Origin: a virus
Virus record (IMG/VR): IMGVR_UViG_3300045988_098825
Location: 1-60,945 of that record
Length of the DNA stretch: 60,945 nucleotides
Strand: one strand, 5' to 3'
How positions within the stretch are numbered: position 1 is the first letter of the stretch; each line of letters starts with the position of its first letter. Made by a program: the position numbers and the translations under genes. The notes below the pieces were generated by a model that was not told the DNA's origin, ran no database searches, and worked only from the letters and a program-made list of their open reading frames with translations. This document shows, in pieces, positions 3,216 to 50,528 of the stretch.

Positions 3216-3387
3216 CAGTTGTGCTTACACAGAATGGAAAAGAAATTAATCCAGAAGATGTAGTTTTGCCGTCAGAAGTGCTAAAGCTGATTGCAGAGTT
3301 GATTAATTGACGAAAAATTGATAATAGTGTAGAATGCGTCATGTAGTGAATATGGCGCATTCTTTTATATCTGATGGAGGAACGAGA

Positions 3388-4749
3388 ATGGAATGTGTCG
3401 CATATATGCGTGTTTCCACGGAGAAACAGGCAGAAGAGGGAAACGGATTAGACAGCCAAAGGAGAGATATTGAAAACTATTGCAGAAAAAATGAACTGGT
3501 AATTACAGATTGGTACATTGATGATGGGTATACAGGCGCAAATATGGACAGACCAGAATTGCAAAGGCTTGTATCAGACTGTGATCGTAAGCGTGTAGGC
3601 TATGTTGTTGCTTTCAAACTGGACAGAATATCACGTAGCATGGTAGACGGTATTTATCTAATTGAAAGAGTATTCCTTAAAAATAATGTGGAGTTTAAGT
3701 GTGTACATGACAGTATCAGCTATGATAATCCTATGGAGCAGGCTTATACACAGATGATGGCAGTATTCGCACAACTGGACAAGAATACAATGCTGTTGCG
3801 TATGCGTGGTGGAATGTTGGAGCGTGTCAAACAAGGCTACTGGATGGGCGGTGGAAATCTTCCATACTGCTATACATACAGCAAAGATACAGGAACACTT
3901 ATACCAATTCCAGAACGCAAGGAACAGGCAAACAAAGCAATGGATTTATTCTTGCAAGGATATTCAGACGTAAAAATCCGTGATATGTTAGGATTTAAAA
4001 GCGAATTTGTTGTGAAGCAAGTACTCACAAGCCCTGTAAACATTGGAATGATACCGTATAAGGGGAATATCTATCAGGGATTGCATGAACCTATATTTAA
4101 TAAGGAAGTGTTTGAAAAAGCCCAACAATTCAGAGCAATAAGGAAAAACAAAAGGGCAAGTTGCCATAACATCCAAACTAACTTATTGACAGGTTTATGC
4201 TATTGTGGAATCTGTGGATGCGCTATGAGGTATCAGAAATGGACGCATGGAAAGCATAAGATTTACTGTTGTTCCAGGAATAAGGACTTGCATTATCTTC
4301 CTAACCACAATCCAAATTGTAATAATACTTTGGAATGGGCTTCAGATATTGAAAAAGCTGTAGAGAACGAAATACTTTTAATATCTGCCAATATATCAGA
4401 CTATAAGCCAAGAGTAAAAGAATCTAAATTGGAAATATTGCAAGGGCAACTAGAAAAAGAGCAGACTAAGCGTAAAAGGCTATATAACCTGTATGCAGAG
4501 GGCAATGATGATGTTATCAGCATGATTAAAGAAATTGAGAAAGTAATAGAAGATATCCGTAAACAGATCAAGGAAGAATCTGCAATAGAAACAAATAAAA
4601 CTAGACAAAATGTATTTAAGAACATAAAAAATCTTGCCGACATTTGGGAAGATATCGACAAGAAACAAAAAAATATGTTACTAAAAAGTATAATTGAAAA
4701 AATCGTAATTAGCAATGGAAATATTGAGATAAAATTGAAAGATTTTTAG
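3388..4749 (+). CDS. large serine recombinase (integrase)
   Basis: Resolvase-type N-terminus with AYMRVSTEKQ catalytic-Ser motif, Cys-rich zinc ribbon (CYCGICG..YCCS) and C-terminal coiled coil. GGAGGA precedes ATG 3388. Confidence 0.92.
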   Translation: MECVAYMRVSTEKQAEEGNGLDSQRRDIENYCRKNELVITDWYIDDGYTGANMDRPELQRLVSDCDRKRVGYVVAFKLDRISRSMVDGIYLIERVFLKNNVEFKCVHDSISYDNPMEQAYTQMMAVFAQLDKNTMLLRMRGGMLERVKQGYWMGGGNLPYCYTYSKDTGTLIPIPERKEQANKAMDLFLQGYSDVKIRDMLGFKSEFVVKQVLTSPVNIGMIPYKGNIYQGLHEPIFNKEVFEKAQQFRAIRKNKRASCHNIQTNLLTGLCYCGICGCAMRYQKWTHGKHKIYCCSRNKDLHYLPNHNPNCNNTLEWASDIEKAVENEILLISANISDYKPRVKESKLEILQGQLEKEQTKRKRLYNLYAEGNDDVISMIKEIEKVIEDIRKQIKEESAIETNKTRQNVFKNIKNLADIWEDIDKKQKNMLLKSIIEKIVISNGNIEIKLKDF

Positions 4750-5173: not shown

Positions 5174-5659
5174 ATGCAACCGTATGTGAATCCATATTAC
5201 CTACAGCAGAACCAGCAGGTCTATCCGCAGTATTATAACCCACTGGCACAGGTGCAAAACAGATCAATAGATTATCAGCAAAATATACCAAACAATTACC
5301 AGCAGAATCAGATTGTGCAGGGAATTAACGGAAAAATAATTGCGGAGCTGAGTCAGATAACAGCAAATGATGTACCTATGGACGGTAGTGTTGCATTTTT
5401 TCCAAAGCAAGACTTGTCAGAAGTATATGCCAAGAGCTGGAATGCAGACGGTACAATCCGCACAGTTACTTATAAGCCTGTTTTGGATAACGATCCTAAG
5501 ACAGCATCCGAACCAGAAAAAATTAAGTGTGACCTATCGGAAGAATCCGCACAGAATATTATGAACAAATTTGATGAAATATCTGACAGGCTGGGGCAGT
5601 TAGAAAAATCTTTGCAATCCCAAAGAAAAACTTCACAGACGCAAAGAAAGGATGATTAA
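5174..5659 (+). CDS. protein with Q/N/Y/P-rich prion-like N-terminus
   Basis: MQPYVNPYYLQQNQQVYPQYYNPLAQVQNRSIDYQQNIPNNYQQNQ...; AAGGAG RBS. Confidence 0.55.
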   Translation: MQPYVNPYYLQQNQQVYPQYYNPLAQVQNRSIDYQQNIPNNYQQNQIVQGINGKIIAELSQITANDVPMDGSVAFFPKQDLSEVYAKSWNADGTIRTVTYKPVLDNDPKTASEPEKIKCDLSEESAQNIMNKFDEISDRLGQLEKSLQSQRKTSQTQRKDD

Positions 5660-10709: not shown

Positions 10710-10764
10710 CTCTTAAAAAAATTATATAATAATAGCCTAGTTAATTCTAGGATATGTTTTAAAA

Positions 10765-10805
10765 AGCAAGTCGGGGAATCGAACCCCGATAGACCACCAC
10801 GGCTT
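10765..10805 (-). other. tRNA 3'-portion-like fragment (T-arm plus acceptor 3' strand)
   Basis: Minus strand reads ..GGTGGTCTAT CGGGG TTCGATT CCCCG ACTTGCT TTTT. No matching 5' half is present. Confidence 0.5.
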
Positions 10806-15808: not shown

Positions 15809-16072
15809 AATGCAGTATTTATAAGGGTTTCAAGGTTTTATCAATGATATTAAAGAGTACGGAAAATTAATATTTTGCGAATAGTTAACGTATGTTCGAT
15901 TAATAGCATGGATCTGGCAGACAGGGGGAGGGGGTCGGAAGAACGGACGAGACAGCCCCTACTGAGTCACCCAAGCCACCCGATAAACAAAAAGCCCTTA
16001 TCCAACACGCAGATATTAATTATCCAGACACCCTATTTCTAAAAATTTTTCAAAAATAAAAAAGGAGTCAAT

Positions 16073-16213
16073 ATGTTCACAGGAATTATTCTTATATGGA
16101 TTTTGATTAAGTTACAGGCACCAACATGGTTATTCTGGTTAGCAGGCGTGAAAATGACATGTTCAGTTTTGGAAATACTTATGTTTGTTTACAAAACAGG
16201 TAAGGAGTCATAG
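16073..16213 (+). CDS. small membrane peptide (46 aa)
   Basis: AAGGAG RBS; MFTGIILIWILIKLQAPTWLFWLAGVKM.. Confidence 0.4.
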   Translation: MFTGIILIWILIKLQAPTWLFWLAGVKMTCSVLEILMFVYKTGKES

Positions 16214-16215
16214 CC

Positions 16216-16386
16216 ATGTTAATCTTCGGCAAGCAAATCACAGACGAGTGTTCCAGATGCGGTCAAGTCTTAGAATGCGAATTGTTCAGGCAGGGGCACG
16301 GCATTAAATGCGATCGAAAGAACATATCAAAGATGCTGGAATGCCAGTTTGAACACAGGGAGAAAAGAGAAAATGAGGAAAAATAA
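16216..16386 (+). CDS. small Cys-containing protein (56 aa)
   Basis: AAGGAG RBS; ..CSRCGQVLEC.. Confidence 0.4.
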   Translation: MLIFGKQITDECSRCGQVLECELFRQGHGIKCDRKNISKMLECQFEHREKRENEEK

Positions 16387-16666: not shown

Positions 16667-16920
16667 CTAGCTTTACAAGTGGAAATTCGGACAATACAAA
16701 AGAAGCAGTACACGGACTTGATATTTTTACTAAAAACTGGTGTATGAACTGTGAAGAAACTAAAAAACAAAACGATTTAGTGTTTAGATGCTCTGAATGC
16801 CAATTTAAGACAGAAGATGGTAAATGCTTAGTGAAAGTATTTGCTAATAGTCATAAGCATGATTATCCGTTAAAAGATTTTGGAAGCATGGAGGGAACAT
16901 TAAACATGGCAGAAGGGTAA
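16645..16920 (+). CDS. Cys-rich small protein
   Basis: AGGTGG RBS before ATG 16645; CMNCEE..CSECQ. Confidence 0.5.
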   Translation: MDNGFEMTSFTSGNSDNTKEAVHGLDIFTKNWCMNCEETKKQNDLVFRCSECQFKTEDGKCLVKVFANSHKHDYPLKDFGSMEGTLNMAEG

Positions 16921-16927
16921 ACTTGTT

Positions 16928-17095
16928 ATGTATCGGTTAGAAAGAAAAGATTTTTGCATTTTCAAAAATGAAATAGTGATTATACCTACAATTCGGATTT
17001 TTATAGATAACATGGTATACACGGATAAGAATTTTTCGATAGAATTTCATTTTTTGATAATTCATACAAGACTACTTTTTGCAAAACAAGGTTAG
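16928..17095 (+). CDS. doubtful 55-aa ORF
   Basis: MYRLERKDFCIFKNEIVIIPTIRIFIDNMVYTDKNFSIEFHFLIIHTRLLFAKQG; weak RBS; its stop abuts the first tRNA-like module. Confidence 0.25.
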   Translation: MYRLERKDFCIFKNEIVIIPTIRIFIDNMVYTDKNFSIEFHFLIIHTRLLFAKQG

Positions 17096-17140
17096 GTAAC
17101 GTACTCAAACGGTTATGTAGGTTCGACTCCTGCCGTTACC
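17095..17140 (+). ncRNA. 46-nt acceptor/T-arm minihelix (tRNA-like, no D or anticodon arm)
   Basis: GGTAACG - 15 nt - GTAGG TTCGACT CCTGC - CGTTACC; perfect 7-bp acceptor and T-loop consensus. Confidence 0.6.
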
Positions 17141-17398
17141 GTTGTCATGTTTTTAGCATTTTGGACAGGACGTACACACTATTTACCTTTTCTTCCGAGA
17201 TAGGTACACCAGTTAGGACTACTGTTAAGGGCGGTGAGAGACCGTCCGACTGGTATCGGTCGAGTGAAATCCCACAACACTTGACCACTTGGTGAAACCC
17301 CGAACCATAGCTTACGCAGATATGACCGTTACAGTCGGATTCCCCTTTACTTAATAATTCTTAGTGGCAATAGCTTAAATAGTTACTACGCAGGTGGT

Positions 17399-17540
17399 AG
17401 ATGTGTGGCGGAATGGGTAAACGCAAGTAAAGAAACTGATTGATAGCATGTTTGCCAAGTAATAAGCGGAGATTGTCCGTAATTAGCAACAAGCAGCTTT
17501 CAGAAATCAATTATGTGAGGTTCAAATCCTCACCACATCA
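17399..17540 (+). ncRNA. tRNA-Leu-like element with about 55 extra nt and no recognisable anticodon arm
   Basis: 5' GATGTG-TGGCGGAATGGGTAAACGCA (class-II D-arm look) and 3' GTGAGG TTCAAAT CCTCAC CACATC. The ends pair for 6 bp, and the interior does not fold as a tRNA by eye. Confidence 0.45.
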
Positions 17541-17686
17541 ATTCCTTATCTCCACTTAGTCGGGTGCTACTGCAATAGTTCCGGTCGATGGGAGACTTAT
17601 GGATGGTAGCGGTATCATTGGAAACAGCAAACCCTTCCGTGATTAGAAATTGCAGATTTGAAAGCGGTTGGCATGGTTTTGGCTGA

Positions 17687-17711
17687 CAGGGTTCGATTCC
17701 CTGTGCTGCTA
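17687..17711 (+). ncRNA. third T-arm plus acceptor 3' strand module
   Basis: CAGGG TTCGATT CCCTG TGCTGCT A. The only upstream partner is wobble-rich (GGTAGCG, 17605-17611). Confidence 0.4.
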
Positions 17712-18039
17712 TCGGTAATTCAAGTAATTGCCGTATCTGCTAAGAGATACCAAGAGTTTGCTTTGAGGTATCTTAAAAAAACTACACTTGCGGAGATAAG
17801 CGACACTGTGACAGCAATAGCCAGTGGGTAGCAAGTGGCACTTTGGAAGTTTGCGCTGGTGCATCAGCGTAGCAGTTTATGAGAAGTGCAGAGAATTGTT
17901 AATATCATTTCAGTTCGTCTTGTGTACAATTTTATGATCATGTAATGTTATTGCTGATTCTTTGTAAACCGTGAAAATGCGCAGTTTTGCGGCAAATGAA
18001 TCCCCTAGAGTGGTTTTGATGAACCTCTGACTAACACAA

Positions 18040-18086
18040 ACTTGCACTTAGTTAGGTATGGAGCAAGTAAAAAACTGGAACCTAAC
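18040..18086 (+). other. candidate H-type pseudoknot 4 nt upstream of tRNA-Ile
   Basis: S1: ACTTGC 18040-45 with GCAAGT 18063-68. S2: GTTAGGT 18051-57 with ACCTAAC 18080-86. Loop 3 is A-rich. Confidence 0.4.
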
Positions 18087-18090
18087 GCAG

Positions 18091-18164
18091 CAGAATGTAG
18101 CGCAGTCGGTTAGAGCACCTGTCTTATATACAGGCGGTCGCAGGTTCGATTCCTGCCATTCTGA
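18091..18164 (+). tRNA. tRNA-Ile (anticodon UAU)
   Basis: Cloverleaf by eye: CAGAATG/CATTCTG acceptor, GCGC..GAGC D-arm (one mismatch), CCTGT CTTATAT ACAGG anticodon arm, GCAGG TTCGATT CCTGC T-arm. No encoded CCA. Confidence 0.85.
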
Positions 18165-18177
18165 TTTTTTGAAAGTA

Positions 18178-18212
18178 CCGTAGGCGTTGTTTGGAGTCCG
18201 AACCGCCTACGG
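18178..18212 (+). other. perfect 9-bp hairpin after the tRNA
   Basis: CCGTAGGCG - 17 nt - CGCCTACGG, with no T-run after it. Confidence 0.6.
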
Positions 18213-18238
18213 AAACTGCACAGATAGGAGAGAGTGAC

Positions 18239-18715
18239 GTGAAAGATTGTTCAAAATGCAAATACTGTTATGAGGATTATATTTTTGACGAAGAAACAGG
18301 AAACGAACATCCAATTTATGATTGTGAAAAGGGAAATGATACAGATTTAGATTTTGAATGTAAGGATTTTAAGGAATACAAACCAAAGAAATATGTTGAA
18401 AAAGATACAGAGTGCGATACATGCGAATTTAAAGAAAGATGTGGAAAATTAAGTTCTGGATTGGATTGCACATGTACTGGCGATACAAAAACACATGTTG
18501 TTTATCCTAAAGATAAATGCATTAAAGCACACTATGACGTAACAGATTTTGATAATGCTTTGAAAAATAGGATGATTGACGCAGACGAATGGTTCAGACT
18601 TGCAAATGCGCCGACTGATGAAGAAATAGAATCACTTAAAAAAGCAAAGGAAATGGGTGTAGAAATCCCAGAAAATATTGCAAACTATTTTAGTGAATAT
18701 GGTATTGAGGTGTGA
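18239..18715 (+). CDS. Cys-rich hypothetical protein
   Basis: AGGAGAG RBS before GTG 18239; many CxxC pairs in the N-terminal half. Confidence 0.55.
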   Translation: MKDCSKCKYCYEDYIFDEETGNEHPIYDCEKGNDTDLDFECKDFKEYKPKKYVEKDTECDTCEFKERCGKLSSGLDCTCTGDTKTHVVYPKDKCIKAHYDVTDFDNALKNRMIDADEWFRLANAPTDEEIESLKKAKEMGVEIPENIANYFSEYGIEV

Positions 18716-50090: not shown

Positions 50091-50528
50091 AAACAGAATT
50101 AAATGTGAGTCAATGTACTCAAAGATACTCAAAATCCAGAGTATTAGTCGGTAACTTAAAACCACTGAAATCATAGGAAAGATAAGCCAGTACAAGTTGA
50201 AATAGTCTTGTTAACTATAGGGTAGAACCTTGATGGTAAAGATTGAGTAATGGTAGAAGTCTACGAAAACCAAGTAGCAAAAAAAATATTAAGAAAGGAA
50301 AAGCTATTTAGATGAAAACCTGTATTTAATCAATAAAAAAGAATTTATAGGTATGTACCGATGGCTTAGTCGGGAATTTACGACTGTGGAGTGTACAAGA
50401 ACTTGTGAGTAGTGTGTCACTTGCGACCACCAAAGCATACACGATGAAGCAGTAACTACAAATTGTGAGATTGTAGCGAATCATCTAGCATATACATTTG
50501 TATATGTTTTTAGTAGCAGAGTGAGAAC

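What the first reader, a model, noticed from the sequence alone, without database searches (positions are those of the whole stretch)
16921..18190. 1.27-kb ORF-free, hairpin-dense RNA locus with tRNA-like punctuation: candidate large structured phage ncRNA
Between the stop at 16920 and the next credible start at 18239, no frame on either strand has an ORF of 60 aa or more. The only ORF is a doubtful 55-aa one at 16928-17095. The rest of the genome is tightly packed with genes. The stretch ends in one canonical tRNA (18091-18164). It also holds three more perfect T-loop-consensus arms (17117-17133, 17516-17532, 17687-17703). Their 3' strands pair with upstream strands, but there are no normal D or anticodon arms. 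Many further helices of 6 bp or more are present (17714-17732, 17733-17750, 17804-17826, 17853-17870, 17969-17992), plus a pseudoknot candidate (18040-18086). Established knowledge: the large ornate RNAs GOLLD and ROOL occur in Firmicute phages and prophages, typically beside tRNA genes, and their function is unknown. This locus has that context and size. I cannot align it to those models by eye, so it may be one of them, a new RNA class, or a decayed tRNA array. The T-arm/acceptor modules could act as RNase P/Z processing punctuation that releases discrete RNAs.
Basis: partly seen in the sequence, partly recalled or inferred. Interest (0 to 1): 0.85.

Follow-up and report, generated by a model that had tools for sequence, protein, structure and literature searches.

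The report
Phage tRNA array with tRNA-like RNAs
This 1.3-kb gene-free stretch of a gut-bacterial virus is not one giant RNA but a reshuffled transfer-RNA gene cluster that has lost most of its true tRNAs and keeps several conserved tRNA-shaped and hairpin RNAs of unknown role, none of which matches an Rfam family.

Summary
16921-18190 is the longest ORF-free stretch in the window, is GC-enriched, and holds one tRNA-Ile(UAU), three more T-arm/acceptor modules and a pseudoknot.

The GOLLD/ROOL-like reading fails. No Rfam model other than tRNA matches, even at E<=10. In more than 200 related gut-phage loci the pieces occur independently, in different orders and combinations, inside real tRNA arrays: Gln-[X]-[U2]-[Z]-tRNAs-[Y]-U3-[Met].

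In this genome:
- 17095-17141 is a tRNA-Ser(GCU) with a 38-nt internal deletion.
- 17399-17541 (U2) is a tRNA-like RNA with acceptor stem, U8, D arm and T arm, whose anticodon arm is replaced by an ornate 75-nt arm.
- 17548-17711 (U3) is a near-invariant hairpin followed by a D-armless tRNA-like domain.
- 17208-17254 (X), 17785-17837 (Z) and 18040-18086 (Y, an H-type pseudoknot) are small modules.

All five conserved non-tRNA modules (U2, U3, X, Y, Z) keep 93-99% of pairs, against 22-50% in slid controls, with many compensatory changes. The U2 frame carries at least seven unrelated inserts in other phages.

Most likely this is a polycistronic tRNA operon cut by RNase P and RNase Z into stable tRNA-like and spacer RNAs. 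Their function is unknown. The remaining roughly 55% is clade-specific filler that folds no better than shuffled sequence.

The parts
16921..17094 (+). AT-rich leader. It holds a promoter-like site (TATACA, 18-nt spacer, TAGAAT, at 17016-17045) and a doubtful 55-aa ORF (16928-17095).
   Evidence: Promoter scan; the number of sites found is no higher than in shuffles. In 7 close variants the ORF stays open, but nearly all substitutions change the amino acid. The segment is conserved only in the close clade.
17095..17141 (+). Unit 1: remnant of tRNA-Ser(GCU). It keeps the acceptor stem (GGTAACG/CGTTACC), part of the D region and the T arm. About 38 nt are deleted, covering the anticodon and variable arms.
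   Evidence: Rfam tRNA model scores 26.6 bits, below the 29-bit threshold, with the D and anticodon arms skipped. The intact 85-nt tRNA-Ser(gct) with the same ends is present in L007 570-654 and L030 5072-5156.
17208..17254 (+). Module X. An outer helix (17208-17213 with 17249-17254) encloses a hairpin, 17229-17234 with 17242-17247, loop UGAGAGA.
   Evidence: 26 distinct copies: 92.9% of cells paired against 22-47% in slid controls, and 6 pairs changed on both sides. In other arrays it follows tRNA-Gln.
17363..17379 (+). Orphan 5' part (AGTGGCAATAGCTTAAA) of a 72-nt tRNA-like element that is intact in L001, L002, L005 and L007.
   Evidence: The BLAST breakpoint is at query position 480. L001 5389-5460 reads AGTGGCA...GGTGGTTCGATTCCACC-T-TGCCACT-A.
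17399..17541 (+). Unit 2: tRNA-framed RNA carrying insert A. Acceptor stem 17399-17405 with 17534-17540 (A1.A72 mismatch in this copy). U8 G9. D arm 17408-17424. Mini-hairpin 17426-17437 with loop AAAGAA. Long arm 17438-17512, comprising a 7-bp stem, a 55-nt inserted hairpin and a 7-nt bulge UUCAGAA at 17499-17505. T arm 17515-17533 with a 6-bp stem. Discriminator A at 17541. No encoded CCA.
   Evidence: Fold z-score -2.77. 18 distinct copies of three types: 96.3% of cells paired against 30-50% in slid controls, and 19 of 43 pairs changed on both sides. The same frame carries 7 insert classes. ARAGORN and Rfam do not call it a tRNA.
17548..17596 (+). Unit 3, 5' hairpin. Three stacked helices: 17548-17553 with 17591-17596, 17560-17564 with 17580-17584, and 17566-17569 with 17576-17579. 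Hexaloop CUGCAA at 17570-17575.
   Evidence: Nearly invariant in 76 distinct copies. The pair at 17562/17582 covaries: G-C 44, U-A 24, A-U 1. The loop is invariant in more than 100 copies apart from one G-to-A variant.
17608..17711 (+). Unit 3, tRNA-like domain. Acceptor stem 17608-17614 with 17704-17710. A 10-nt single-stranded linker containing GG takes the place of a D arm. The long arm has four helices: 17625-17628 with 17682-17685, 17629-17633 with 17675-17679, 17637-17640 with 17664-17667, and 17646-17649 with 17656-17659. Its tip loop is UUGCAG at 17650-17655. T arm 17687-17703. Discriminator A at 17711. No CCA.
   Evidence: For unit 3 as a whole (hairpin plus this domain), 96.1% of cells are paired against 32-44% in slid controls. 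17 pairs are changed on both sides, 16 of them in this domain: 3 in the acceptor, 4 in the arm base, 4 in the arm middle, 1 in the arm tip and 4 in the T stem. Found in at least 120 IMG/VR contigs and two bacterial genome assemblies.
17713..17733 (+). 8-bp hairpin (CGGTAATT / AATTGCCG) directly after unit 3.
   Evidence: Read from the sequence. Conserved only in the close clade, so it cannot be tested by covariation.
17785..17837 (+). Module Z. Outer helix 17785-17791 with 17831-17837, inner helix 17804-17808 with 17822-17826. The loop contains GCAAUAG at 17814-17820.
   Evidence: 7 distinct copies of two types: 98.8% of cells paired against 23-48% in slid controls, and 5 pairs changed on both sides. 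The number of independent lineages is small.
18040..18086 (+). Module Y: H-type pseudoknot. Stem 1 is 18040-18045 with 18063-18068. Stem 2 is 18051-18057 with 18080-18086. It ends 4 nt before tRNA-Ile.
   Evidence: 14 distinct copies: 96.7% of cells paired against 29-43% in slid controls, and 6 pairs changed on both sides, 4 of them in the pseudoknot stem. In other arrays it sits just upstream of tRNA-Phe or tRNA-Ser.
18091..18164 (+). tRNA-Ile, anticodon UAU. This is the only canonical tRNA in the window.
   Evidence: ARAGORN; Rfam tRNA 66.9 bits.
18178..18212 (+). 9-bp GC-rich hairpin (CCGTAGGCG / CGCCTACGG) between the tRNA and the next gene (GTG start at 18239). No U-tract follows it.
   Evidence: Read from the sequence. 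Not called as a terminator. Retained in the L027-type relatives.

Best explanation
The stretch is the tRNA operon of a temperate phage of gut Clostridia, in a mosaic and partly decayed state. It encodes independent small structured RNAs laid head to tail on the + strand, not one large RNA.

Shown:
- The same modules occur in many related phages inside arrays of ordinary tRNAs, in the order Gln-[X]-[U2]-[Z]-(Tyr, Glu, Arg/Ile, [Y]Phe, Ser, Ser, Trp)-U3-[Met].
- They are gained, lost and fused independently, often by breaks inside T arms.
- This genome keeps one tRNA (Ile-UAU), one internally deleted tRNA-Ser, two tRNA-like RNAs (U2, U3) and three small modules (X, Z, Y). The structures of the last five are maintained by compensatory substitutions.

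Inferred:
- The array is transcribed as one precursor from the AT-rich leader.
- Host RNase P cuts at the 5' end of each acceptor stem: 17399, 17608 and 18091.
- RNase Z cuts after each discriminator, which is always followed by U and never by CCA: 17541, 17711 and 18164.
- The CCA-adding enzyme then completes the 3' ends.
- This would release U2 (143 nt), the U3 hairpin as a spacer RNA of about 66 nt, the U3 tRNA-like domain (104 nt), tRNA-Ile, and leader RNAs carrying X, Z and Y.
- U2 and U3 cannot decode, because neither has a 5-bp anticodon stem with a closed 7-nt loop. They most likely use the tRNA acceptor/T-arm/elbow frame as a handle for processing, stability and protein binding, while the arm that replaces the anticodon arm carries the specific function.
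- The two exactly complementary, invariant hexaloops of U3 (CUGCAA and UUGCAG) probably dock the 5' hairpin on the tip of the tRNA-like domain.

The biological role is not established. Plausible roles are a decoy or regulator for tRNA-binding host factors, or a partner of an unknown phage protein.
For: - Relatives hold real tRNA arrays at the same place, upstream of the same gene.
- Modular presence and absence: 17380-17689 is missing in L001, L002, L005 and L007. 17701-18142 is missing in L027-L034, with a T-arm-to-T-arm junction that fuses the U3 T arm to the 3' end of tRNA-Ile.
- Unit 1 is a deleted tRNA-Ser.
- Covariation supports U3, U2, and X, Y and Z.
- U3 begins 3-10 nt after the 3' end of the preceding tRNA or tRNA-like unit in every array examined.
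- The discriminator A and the following T are invariant in 76 U3 copies.
- GC is enriched in an AT-rich genome.
- All genes and all modules lie on the + strand.
- No Rfam family other than tRNA matches.
- The U2 frame (U8, A14, G18G19, 3-bp D stem, T-loop consensus) is kept while its insert is exchanged among 7 classes, and the T stem covaries between classes: GUGAGG/CCUCAC, GUGUGG/CCACAC, GCGAGG/CCUCGC.
Against: - There are no transcript data, so expression, processing sites and CCA addition are all inferred.
- The promoter-like site is no better than chance.
- The fold energy of U3 is unremarkable, z = +0.22; its support is comparative only.
- The compensatory changes come from about three sequence types per module, so the number of independent events is small. 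The shuffle control ignores relatedness.
- Within the window's own clade the modules look dispensable. L001-type genomes lack U2 and U3, L027-type genomes carry a broken U3 acceptor, and the window's U2 has an A.A mismatch at pair 1:72.
- The kissing-loop pairing never varies, so covariation says nothing about it. The single loop variant found is not compensated.
Confidence: 0.7

Rival explanations
1. Pure decay. Everything except tRNA-Ile is non-functional debris of a tRNA array that is being lost. The apparent conservation reflects recent exchange of the same DNA among closely related gut phages.
For: - Unit 1 is a deletion remnant.
- There is an orphan half-element at 17363-17379.
- L027-type loci carry chimeric T arms, and L001-type loci have lost U2 and U3.
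- The spacers fold no better than shuffles.
- Each module has only about three sequence types.
Against: - U2, U3, X, Y and Z keep 93-99% of their pairs through 5-19 double-sided changes each, while slid controls give 22-50%.
- U3 is kept in arrays whose flanking protein is only about 48% identical.
- 15 loci with no tRNA at all still keep X, U2 and the U3 hairpin.
- The U3 loops stay invariant while their closing stems vary.
Confidence: 0.15
2. A single large ornate structured RNA of about 1.2 kb, of GOLLD/ROOL type or a new class.
For: It is the longest ORF-free stretch, it is GC-enriched, it has many helices, and it sits in a Firmicute phage next to a tRNA.
Against: - No GOLLD, ROOL or other large-RNA hit at E<=10.
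- The modules occur separately and in different orders in relatives.
- No long-range helix links the modules in the conserved structures.
- 55% of the stretch is not conserved outside the close clade and has z = -0.68.
Confidence: 0.03
3. U2, and perhaps U3, are real decoding tRNAs interrupted by removable inserts. For example, U2 would be a tRNA-Leu(CAG) whose 7-nt loop UUCAGAA is split from its stem by a 55-nt intron-like hairpin.
For: - The U2 frame has U8, A14, G18G19 and a class-II-type 3-bp D stem.
- A 7-nt bulge UUCAGAA (U at loop position 2, purine at position 6) sits on a 7-bp stem and is invariant in all three types.
Against: - No group I intron or other intron model matches.
- The insert lies 5' of the loop, a position with no known bacterial splicing route (my knowledge of tRNA introns).
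- An extra mini-hairpin sits between the D arm and the stem. The stem has 7 bp, the T stem has 6 bp, and there is no variable arm.
- The six other inserts in the same frame show no anticodon-like stem-loop in their predicted folds.
- The U3 tip loop is 6 or 8 nt, never 7.
Confidence: 0.07
4. The function is at the DNA level. The tRNA-like frames would be recombination or attachment sites, used for module exchange or integration, and the sequences between them would be passengers.
For: Breakpoints between relatives fall in T arms and frames. One frame occurs with 7 inserts, and insert A occurs in 2 frames. The phage encodes a large serine recombinase at 3334-4746.
Against: - Compensatory changes preserve RNA helices both in the frames and inside insert A. 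A DNA site would not require this.
- The recombinase gene is 12 kb away.
- Both strands of every acceptor stem are present, unlike att cores that copy only a tRNA 3' end.
Confidence: 0.05

Closest known systems
Bacteriophage T4 RNAC and RNAD (species 1 and 2 stable RNAs of the T4 tRNA region)
   Same: They are small non-tRNA RNAs encoded within a phage tRNA gene cluster, and their biological role is still unknown (PMC3014915, PMC9697503). From my own knowledge of the older T4 literature, not checked here, they are matured along with the tRNAs.
   Different: There is no sequence similarity: blastn of the whole stretch against 50,697 phage records, which should include T4, returned only matches to the tRNA. 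The host clade differs. Here there are at least five module types, and one of them has interchangeable inserts.
tRNA-like domain of tmRNA
   Same: The U3 domain has the same layout: an acceptor stem stacked on a T arm, a single-stranded GG-containing stretch where the D arm would be, and a long helix in place of the anticodon arm.
   Different: There is no mRNA-like reading frame, no pseudoknot ring and no G3:U70 pair, and the domain is only 104 nt. ARAGORN finds no tmRNA at default settings. The Rfam tmRNA model matches only the 17-nt T arm, at 11 bits.
GOLLD and ROOL large RNAs
   Same: Phage or prophage context in Firmicutes, next to tRNA genes, with function unknown.
   Different: Neither covariance model matches. 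This locus is a chain of separable units of 47-165 nt rather than one fold of 500-800 nt.
Engineered 'tRNA scaffold' RNAs, in which cargo is inserted in place of the anticodon arm (my recollection of Ponchon and Dardel, 2007), and natural tRNA-like processing handles such as mascRNA on MALAT1
   Same: The U2 family has this architecture: a constant acceptor, D and T frame with a variable structured insert where the anticodon arm would be. The mascRNA model weakly matches the acceptor plus T arm of U3, at 19-21 bits.
   Different: These RNAs are natural, phage-encoded, and sit in a tRNA operon. Whether the frame serves processing and stability here is inferred, not shown.
Candidate structured RNAs catalogued from IMG/VR (Fremin et al. 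2023, PMC10690425)
   Same: That survey used the same data source and reported tRNA-like candidates and highly expressed small RNAs from gut phages of Lachnospiraceae, Blautia and Ruminococcus.
   Different: Its tables are not held in the paper library, so I could not check whether any of the modules is already listed there. None is in Rfam 15.

Membership tests
GOLLD RNA (Rfam) | A match to the family covariance model | tested here: not met
   No hit at the gathering threshold on the whole window, and none at E<=10 on 16800-18300.
ROOL RNA (Rfam) | A match to the family covariance model | tested here: not met
   No hit at the gathering threshold or at E<=10.
tRNA (RF00005 / ARAGORN cloverleaf) | A complete cloverleaf that scores above threshold: acceptor, D arm, 5-bp anticodon stem with 7-nt loop, and T arm | tested here: met
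   Met only for 18091-18164, tRNA-Ile(UAU), at 66.9 bits.
tRNA (RF00005 / ARAGORN cloverleaf) | The same test applied to 17095-17141, 17399-17541 and 17608-17711 | tested here: not met
   Unit 1 scores 26.6 bits, below 29, with the D and anticodon arms skipped. U2 and U3 are not reported by ARAGORN or by the tRNA model. ARAGORN in intron mode gives only a spurious 'tRNA-Arg' that joins the 5' end of unit 1 to the 3' end of U3 across 524 nt.
tRNA-like frame (working definition for U2) | 7-bp acceptor stem, U8, A14, G18G19 in a D loop closed by a stem, T-loop consensus GGTTCRANTCC, and a discriminator base | tested here: met
   Alignments and pair counts. The window copy has an A.A mismatch at pair 1:72.
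tmRNA | A tRNA-like domain together with a tag-peptide reading frame and pseudoknots | tested here: not met
   ARAGORN at default settings finds none. At a relaxed threshold it reports a 'tmRNAp*' with tag AENC*, which I regard as spurious. The Rfam tmRNA model matches only the T arm, at 11.4 bits.
tRNA-Sec | A match to the model: 8/5 acceptor/T stems, 6-bp D stem, UCA anticodon, long variable arm | tested here: not met
   20.5 bits against a 47-bit threshold for the U3 domain of L084. Only the acceptor and T arm align.
Phage tRNA-cluster stable RNAs (T4 RNAC/RNAD type) | A non-tRNA RNA gene located inside a phage tRNA gene cluster | tested here: met
   U2, U3, X, Y and Z lie between ARAGORN-called tRNAs in dozens of arrays.
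Phage tRNA-cluster stable RNAs (T4 RNAC/RNAD type) | A stable transcript matured from the tRNA precursor | not testable with these tools
   No expression data are available here.
Phage tRNA-cluster stable RNAs (T4 RNAC/RNAD type) | Sequence homology to T4 RNAC or RNAD | tested here: not met
   blastn of 16900-18250 against the GenBank phage collection returned only tRNA matches. A structure-level comparison was not done.
H-type pseudoknot (module Y) | Two stems, with the 5' strand of stem 2 lying in the loop of stem 1, and both stems conserved | tested here: met
   96.7% of cells are paired and 4 of the 7 stem-2 pairs have changes on both sides.

The most novel reading that the evidence does not exclude
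These gut phages encode a family of natural 'tRNA-scaffolded' RNAs that has not been described.

One conserved tRNA frame (7-bp acceptor, U8, tRNA-Leu-like D arm, 6-bp T stem, discriminator A) displays at least seven unrelated structured inserts of 60-147 nt in place of the anticodon arm. Both frames and inserts are exchanged by recombination.

The family is paired with a second tRNA-like RNA (U3), whose arm tip docks on a co-released hairpin through a 6-bp loop-loop contact that resembles a codon-anticodon pair (UGC with GCA).

The frame would recruit RNase P, RNase Z, the CCA-adding enzyme, and possibly an anticodon-independent synthetase. The inserts would act as decoys or inhibitors of host tRNA-directed factors, such as antiphage tRNases.
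Probability: 0.3. Interest if true: 0.85.

Novelty: new variant of a known kind. Interest (0 to 1): 0.6.

Why it matters
Phage tRNA clusters are usually read as codon-supply devices or, more recently, as spare parts against tRNA-cleaving defences. Here the non-tRNA members of the cluster are the best-kept parts. They persist in genomes that have lost every tRNA, they have well-defined covarying structures, and none has an Rfam family.

If they are expressed, they give at least five new RNA families (U2, U3, X, Y, Z) from very common human-gut phages. They would also give a natural example of a tRNA frame used as a carrier for exchangeable RNA domains.

That would revive the question of what the non-tRNA RNAs in phage tRNA operons do, which has stood open since T4 RNAC and RNAD. 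It would offer many natural variants to test it with.

For genome annotation, the case shows that T-arm-bearing 'pseudo-tRNAs' in phage arrays should not all be dismissed as decay.

Tried and rejected
- ARAGORN with introns allowed reports a 'tRNA-Arg' with a 524-nt intron spanning 17095-17711. I rejected it because its two acceptor strands belong to different units.
- ARAGORN at an 80% threshold gives extra 'tRNAs' and a 'tmRNAp*' with no comparative support. Rejected.
- The weak tRNA-Sec, mascRNA and CPEB3 hits align only the acceptor and T arm, or are chance matches.
- A degenerate genome scan with TAGAANTTGCAGNTTNNAAA returned about 120 random AT-rich matches from unrelated taxa. It was useless; loci L174-L292 should be ignored.
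- The tool's MAFFT alignments A2 and A3 misplace gaps in the U2 acceptor and D stems. I therefore counted pairs on my own end-anchored alignment. In A1 only 5 of the 7 U3 acceptor pairs could be scored, for the same reason.
- A long duplex between the whole U3 hairpin and the tRNA-like domain scores -35.9 kcal/mol, no better than shuffles: 85 of 300 do as well. Only the loop-loop complement remains of interest.
- I looked for an 'empty' canonical tRNA with the U2 frame among 25 tRNA types in 308 loci and found none; the best match was 12 of 25 positions.
- I looked for loop variants of U3 to test the kissing pair and found one uncompensated variant, which is not informative.
- Pfam and PHROG searches on 10 neighbouring genes gave nothing RNA-related, only small zinc-ribbon-like proteins and a DNA methylase. 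Twenty further genes show a temperate phage with a serine recombinase, AntA, SSB and RecT.
- The supplementary tables of Fremin et al. 2023 are not available.
Full report
**1. The observation**

The stretch 16921-18190 is real and unusual. A six-frame scan shows it is the longest part of the window with no ORF of 60 aa or more: 1270 nt, against 540 nt for the runner-up. The ORFs that do overlap it are 57 aa or shorter. Its GC content is 0.40-0.45 in a genome that runs at 0.30-0.35 on either side.

ARAGORN and Rfam agree on a single tRNA in the whole window, tRNA-Ile(UAU) at 18091-18164. The T-loop consensus GGTTCRANTCC occurs six times in the window where 0.11 is expected. Four of the six are in this stretch on the + strand.

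**2. It is not a known large RNA**

Searching all 4227 Rfam models gives nothing in the stretch but the tRNA at gathering thresholds. At E<=10 the only additions are sub-threshold matches of the tRNA, mascRNA and tmRNA models to bare acceptor/T-arm pieces, plus obvious noise. There is no GOLLD and no ROOL hit.

blastn against 50,697 GenBank phage records finds only the tRNA.

**3. What relatives show**

Using the downstream gene (18239-18712) as an anchor, 44 IMG/VR loci were fetched. DNA patterns later brought the total to about 300.

Close relatives (99% identity in the anchor protein) match the stretch in blocks:
- 17380-17689 is absent from L001, L002, L005 and L007.
- 17701-18142 is absent from L027-L034.
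- Distant relatives (about 48% identity in the anchor protein) keep only 17543-17701.

In those distant relatives the same intergenic position holds a genuine tRNA array of 3-7 genes. Over all loci the arrays follow a loose order: Gln-[X]-[U2]-[Z]-(Tyr, Glu, Arg/Ile, [Y]Phe, Ser, Ser, Trp)-U3-[Met].

The window's clade is reduced to X-U2-U3-Z-Y-Ile in 9 loci, or X-U2-U3 with no tRNA at all in 15 loci.

The locus is therefore a tRNA operon, and its parts behave as separable modules. A prophage copy lies in Clostridium sp. CAG:510 and another in a Hadza gut MAG. The phage is temperate, with a serine recombinase, AntA, SSB and RecT.

**4. Unit 1 (17095-17141) is decay**

L007 and L030 have an intact 85-nt tRNA-Ser(GCU) with the same first 19 and last 30 bases. 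The window copy has lost the roughly 38 nt between them, which is the anticodon and variable arms. It scores 26.6 bits on the tRNA model, below threshold.

A second scar is the orphan 17363-17379. This is the 5' end of a 72-nt tRNA-like element that is whole in L001 at 5389-5460.

In L027-L034 the U3 T arm is fused to the 3' end of tRNA-Ile, which destroys both. Recombination within T arms evidently remodels these arrays.

**5. Unit 3 (17548-17711) is a conserved RNA, not a broken tRNA**

It has two parts.

The first part is a 49-nt hairpin (17548-17596) of three stacked helices with hexaloop CUGCAA. It is almost invariant.

After a 12-nt linker comes a 104-nt tRNA-like domain (17608-17711) made of:
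- a 7-bp acceptor stem;
- a 10-13-nt single-stranded linker that always contains GG where the D arm should be;
- a long arm of four helices tipped by the loop UUGCAG;
- a standard T arm;
- discriminator A, with no CCA.

On 76 distinct copies of three sequence types, 96.1% of cells are standard pairs, against 32-44% when partners are slid by 1-3 columns. Seventeen pairs show changes on both sides: 1 in the hairpin, 3 in the acceptor, 4 in the arm base, 4 in the arm middle, 1 in the arm tip and 4 in the T stem.

Its folding energy alone is unremarkable, z = +0.22. The case rests on comparison, and on only about three lineages.

The layout is that of the tRNA-like domain of tmRNA, but there is no reading frame and no tmRNA call.

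**6. The two U3 loops**

CUGCAA (17570-17575) is the exact reverse complement of UUGCAG (17650-17655). Both are invariant in more than 100 distinct copies, while the base pairs that close them vary. The closing pair of the arm-tip loop, for example, is U-A, G-C or A.A.

By my estimate, two given hexaloops match with probability 1 in 4096. With about ten loops in the locus, the chance of some such pair is roughly 1%.

A 6-7-bp loop-loop helix has a duplex energy of -6 to -8 kcal/mol. Because nothing varies, covariation can neither support nor refute it. The one variant seen, CUACAA, is uncompensated. A more extensive hairpin-to-domain duplex is no better than chance.

I treat the kissing contact as a reasonable inference. 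An equally possible reading is that both loops bind one external partner.

**7. Unit 2 (17399-17541) is a tRNA frame carrying a foreign arm**

Properly anchored alignments show:
- a 7-bp acceptor stem, with A.A at pair 1:72 in the window's type and a perfect stem in the others;
- U8 G9;
- a 3-bp D stem whose loop has A14 and G18G19, and which resembles bacterial tRNA-Leu D arms from my memory of E. coli tRNA-Leu;
- a mini-hairpin with invariant loop AAAGAA;
- a 7-bp stem that continues into a 55-nt four-helix hairpin, leaving a 7-nt bulge UUCAGAA;
- a 6-bp T stem and a discriminator base.

Across 18 distinct copies of three types, 96.3% of cells pair, against 30-50% in slid controls. Nineteen of 43 pairs change on both sides. 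The fold z-score is -2.77.

The bulge looks like an anticodon loop (U at position 2, CAG, purine at position 6). However, it is not closed into a loop, and the element has features no decoding tRNA has.

**8. One frame, many inserts**

L060, L129 and L131 matched the window only at the two ends of U2. Reading them showed the same frame around completely different middles.

A scan with the 25-nt 5' frame, again limited to 120 rows, gave seven insert classes. Total lengths are 112, 126-128, 137, 141-142, 153, 154-156 and 199-200 nt.

Each class is predicted to fold with the acceptor, D hairpin and T arm intact and a structured insert. Within the five classes that have at least three variants and could be scored, 99-100% of predicted pairs are kept.

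The T stem covaries between classes. Insert A also occurs in a second frame, UAGGUGG/CCACCUA. No ordinary tRNA with this frame exists among 25 tRNA types in the fetched loci. None of the inserts matches an Rfam family.

This is the most unexpected result. It is what an engineered 'tRNA scaffold' looks like, but it is natural.

**9. The spacers**

Three short modules inside the spacers recur in other arrays and covary:

| Module | Coordinates | Distinct copies | Cells paired | Pairs changed on both sides |
|---|---|---|---|---|
| X | 17208-17254 | 26 | 92.9% | 6 |
| Z | 17785-17837 | 7 | 98.8% | 5 |
| Y | 18040-18086 | 14 | 96.7% | 6 |

Y is an H-type pseudoknot that ends 4 nt before tRNA-Ile. 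Elsewhere it sits just upstream of tRNA-Phe or tRNA-Ser.

The rest of the stretch is 16921-17094, 17142-17207, 17255-17398, 17712-17784 and 17838-18039, about 55% in all. It is conserved only among relatives that are about 94% identical and folds no better than shuffled sequence, z = -0.68 twice. 'Hairpin-dense' is therefore true of the modules, not of the whole.

**10. How it probably works**

What is shown is the anatomy, the modularity and the structural conservation.

What is inferred is the following. The array is transcribed as one precursor on the + strand. RNase P cuts at each acceptor 5' end. RNase Z cuts after each discriminator; every unit lacks CCA and has U after the discriminator, as expected for RNase Z substrates in Firmicutes from my knowledge. 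The CCA-adding enzyme then finishes the ends.

Because U3's hairpin always starts 3-10 nt after the preceding tRNA-like 3' end and stops 12 nt before the next acceptor stem, these cuts would release it as a spacer RNA of about 66 nt.

U2 and U3 lack a decoding arm. Their tRNA frame most plausibly provides processing, stability and access to tRNA-binding proteins, while the replaced arm provides specificity.

A role against tRNA-directed defences is attractive, given how many antiphage tRNases are now known (PMC13056530). It is speculation.

T4's RNAC and RNAD, which are non-tRNA RNAs of the T4 tRNA region with still-unknown roles (PMC3014915, PMC9697503), are the closest precedent.

**11. Verdict**

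The locus is a new variant of a known kind, namely phage tRNA operons with non-tRNA stable RNAs. It contains RNA families absent from Rfam 15. They may or may not be among the uncurated candidates of PMC10690425, whose tables I could not read.

Interest is moderate to high because of the exchangeable-insert tRNA frame and the retention of these RNAs where the tRNAs are lost. It is tempered by the absence of any expression data, the few independent lineages, and signs that the modules are dispensable in the window's own clade.

Noticed in passing
window 50383-50455 (+): RAGATH-18 RNA (RF03064) at 73.4 bits against a 44.9-bit threshold. It lies inside the third-largest ORF-free gap, 50091-50528, and is followed by a hairpin CUACAAU-UGUGAG-AUUGUAG.
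   Followed up: partly
window about 10760-10800 (-): A fifth T-arm look-alike (CGGGGTTCGATTCCCCG, then ACTTGCT, then TTTTT) on the minus strand, between divergent genes. Only a 5-bp candidate partner for the acceptor strand lies upstream. It could be a tRNA fragment or a terminator.
   Followed up: partly
L060 1558-1624; L131 1552-1620: int-alpA RNA (RF02996) scores above its gathering threshold directly after unit 3 in these arrays. A curated sRNA motif is therefore also one of the array modules. It is absent from the window.
   Followed up: no
Related arrays, e.g. L103 (first gene of the array): Suppressor-type tRNAs with anticodons UUA (10 variants) and UCA (3 variants) share one frame, CGGATAGTAGTTCAG...CTATCCGA. 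Longer versions of the same frame, called Leu(caa) and Leu(taa), contain ACTGCAATAG. This hints at stop-codon recoding in some of these phages, and at a second frame with variable middles.
   Followed up: no
window 17572-17578 and 17814-17820: The heptamer GCAAUAG sits in the loop region of both the unit 3 hairpin and module Z, and recurs in the odd tRNA variants above. It may be a shared recognition motif.
   Followed up: no
L001 5389-5460 (also L002, L005, L007): A 72-nt tRNA-like element stands where units 2 and 3 are in the window. It has acceptor AGUGGCA/UGCCACU, a 3-bp D stem, a 7-bp hairpin with a UUU triloop in place of the anticodon arm, and T arm GGUGG/CCACC. ARAGORN does not call it.
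   Followed up: partly
L033 / L320 (IMGVR_UViG_3300045988_052063): This IMG/VR contig has exactly the window's length (60945 bases) but carries the L027-type array, without Z, Y or tRNA-Ile, and differs at many positions. The window is therefore a close relative of it rather than that record.
   Followed up: no
window 15809-16348: The second-largest ORF-free gap (540 nt) lies just upstream. It holds only ORFs shorter than 60 aa, one of them rich in CxxC motifs (16216-16386). The neighbouring small genes are also cysteine-rich.
   Followed up: no
window 17733-17772: Three segments, GUAUCU (17733-17738), AGAUACC (17745-17751) and GGUAUCU (17766-17772), can pair in two mutually exclusive ways. 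This is an alternative-hairpin arrangement after unit 3. It is conserved only in the close clade.
   Followed up: no
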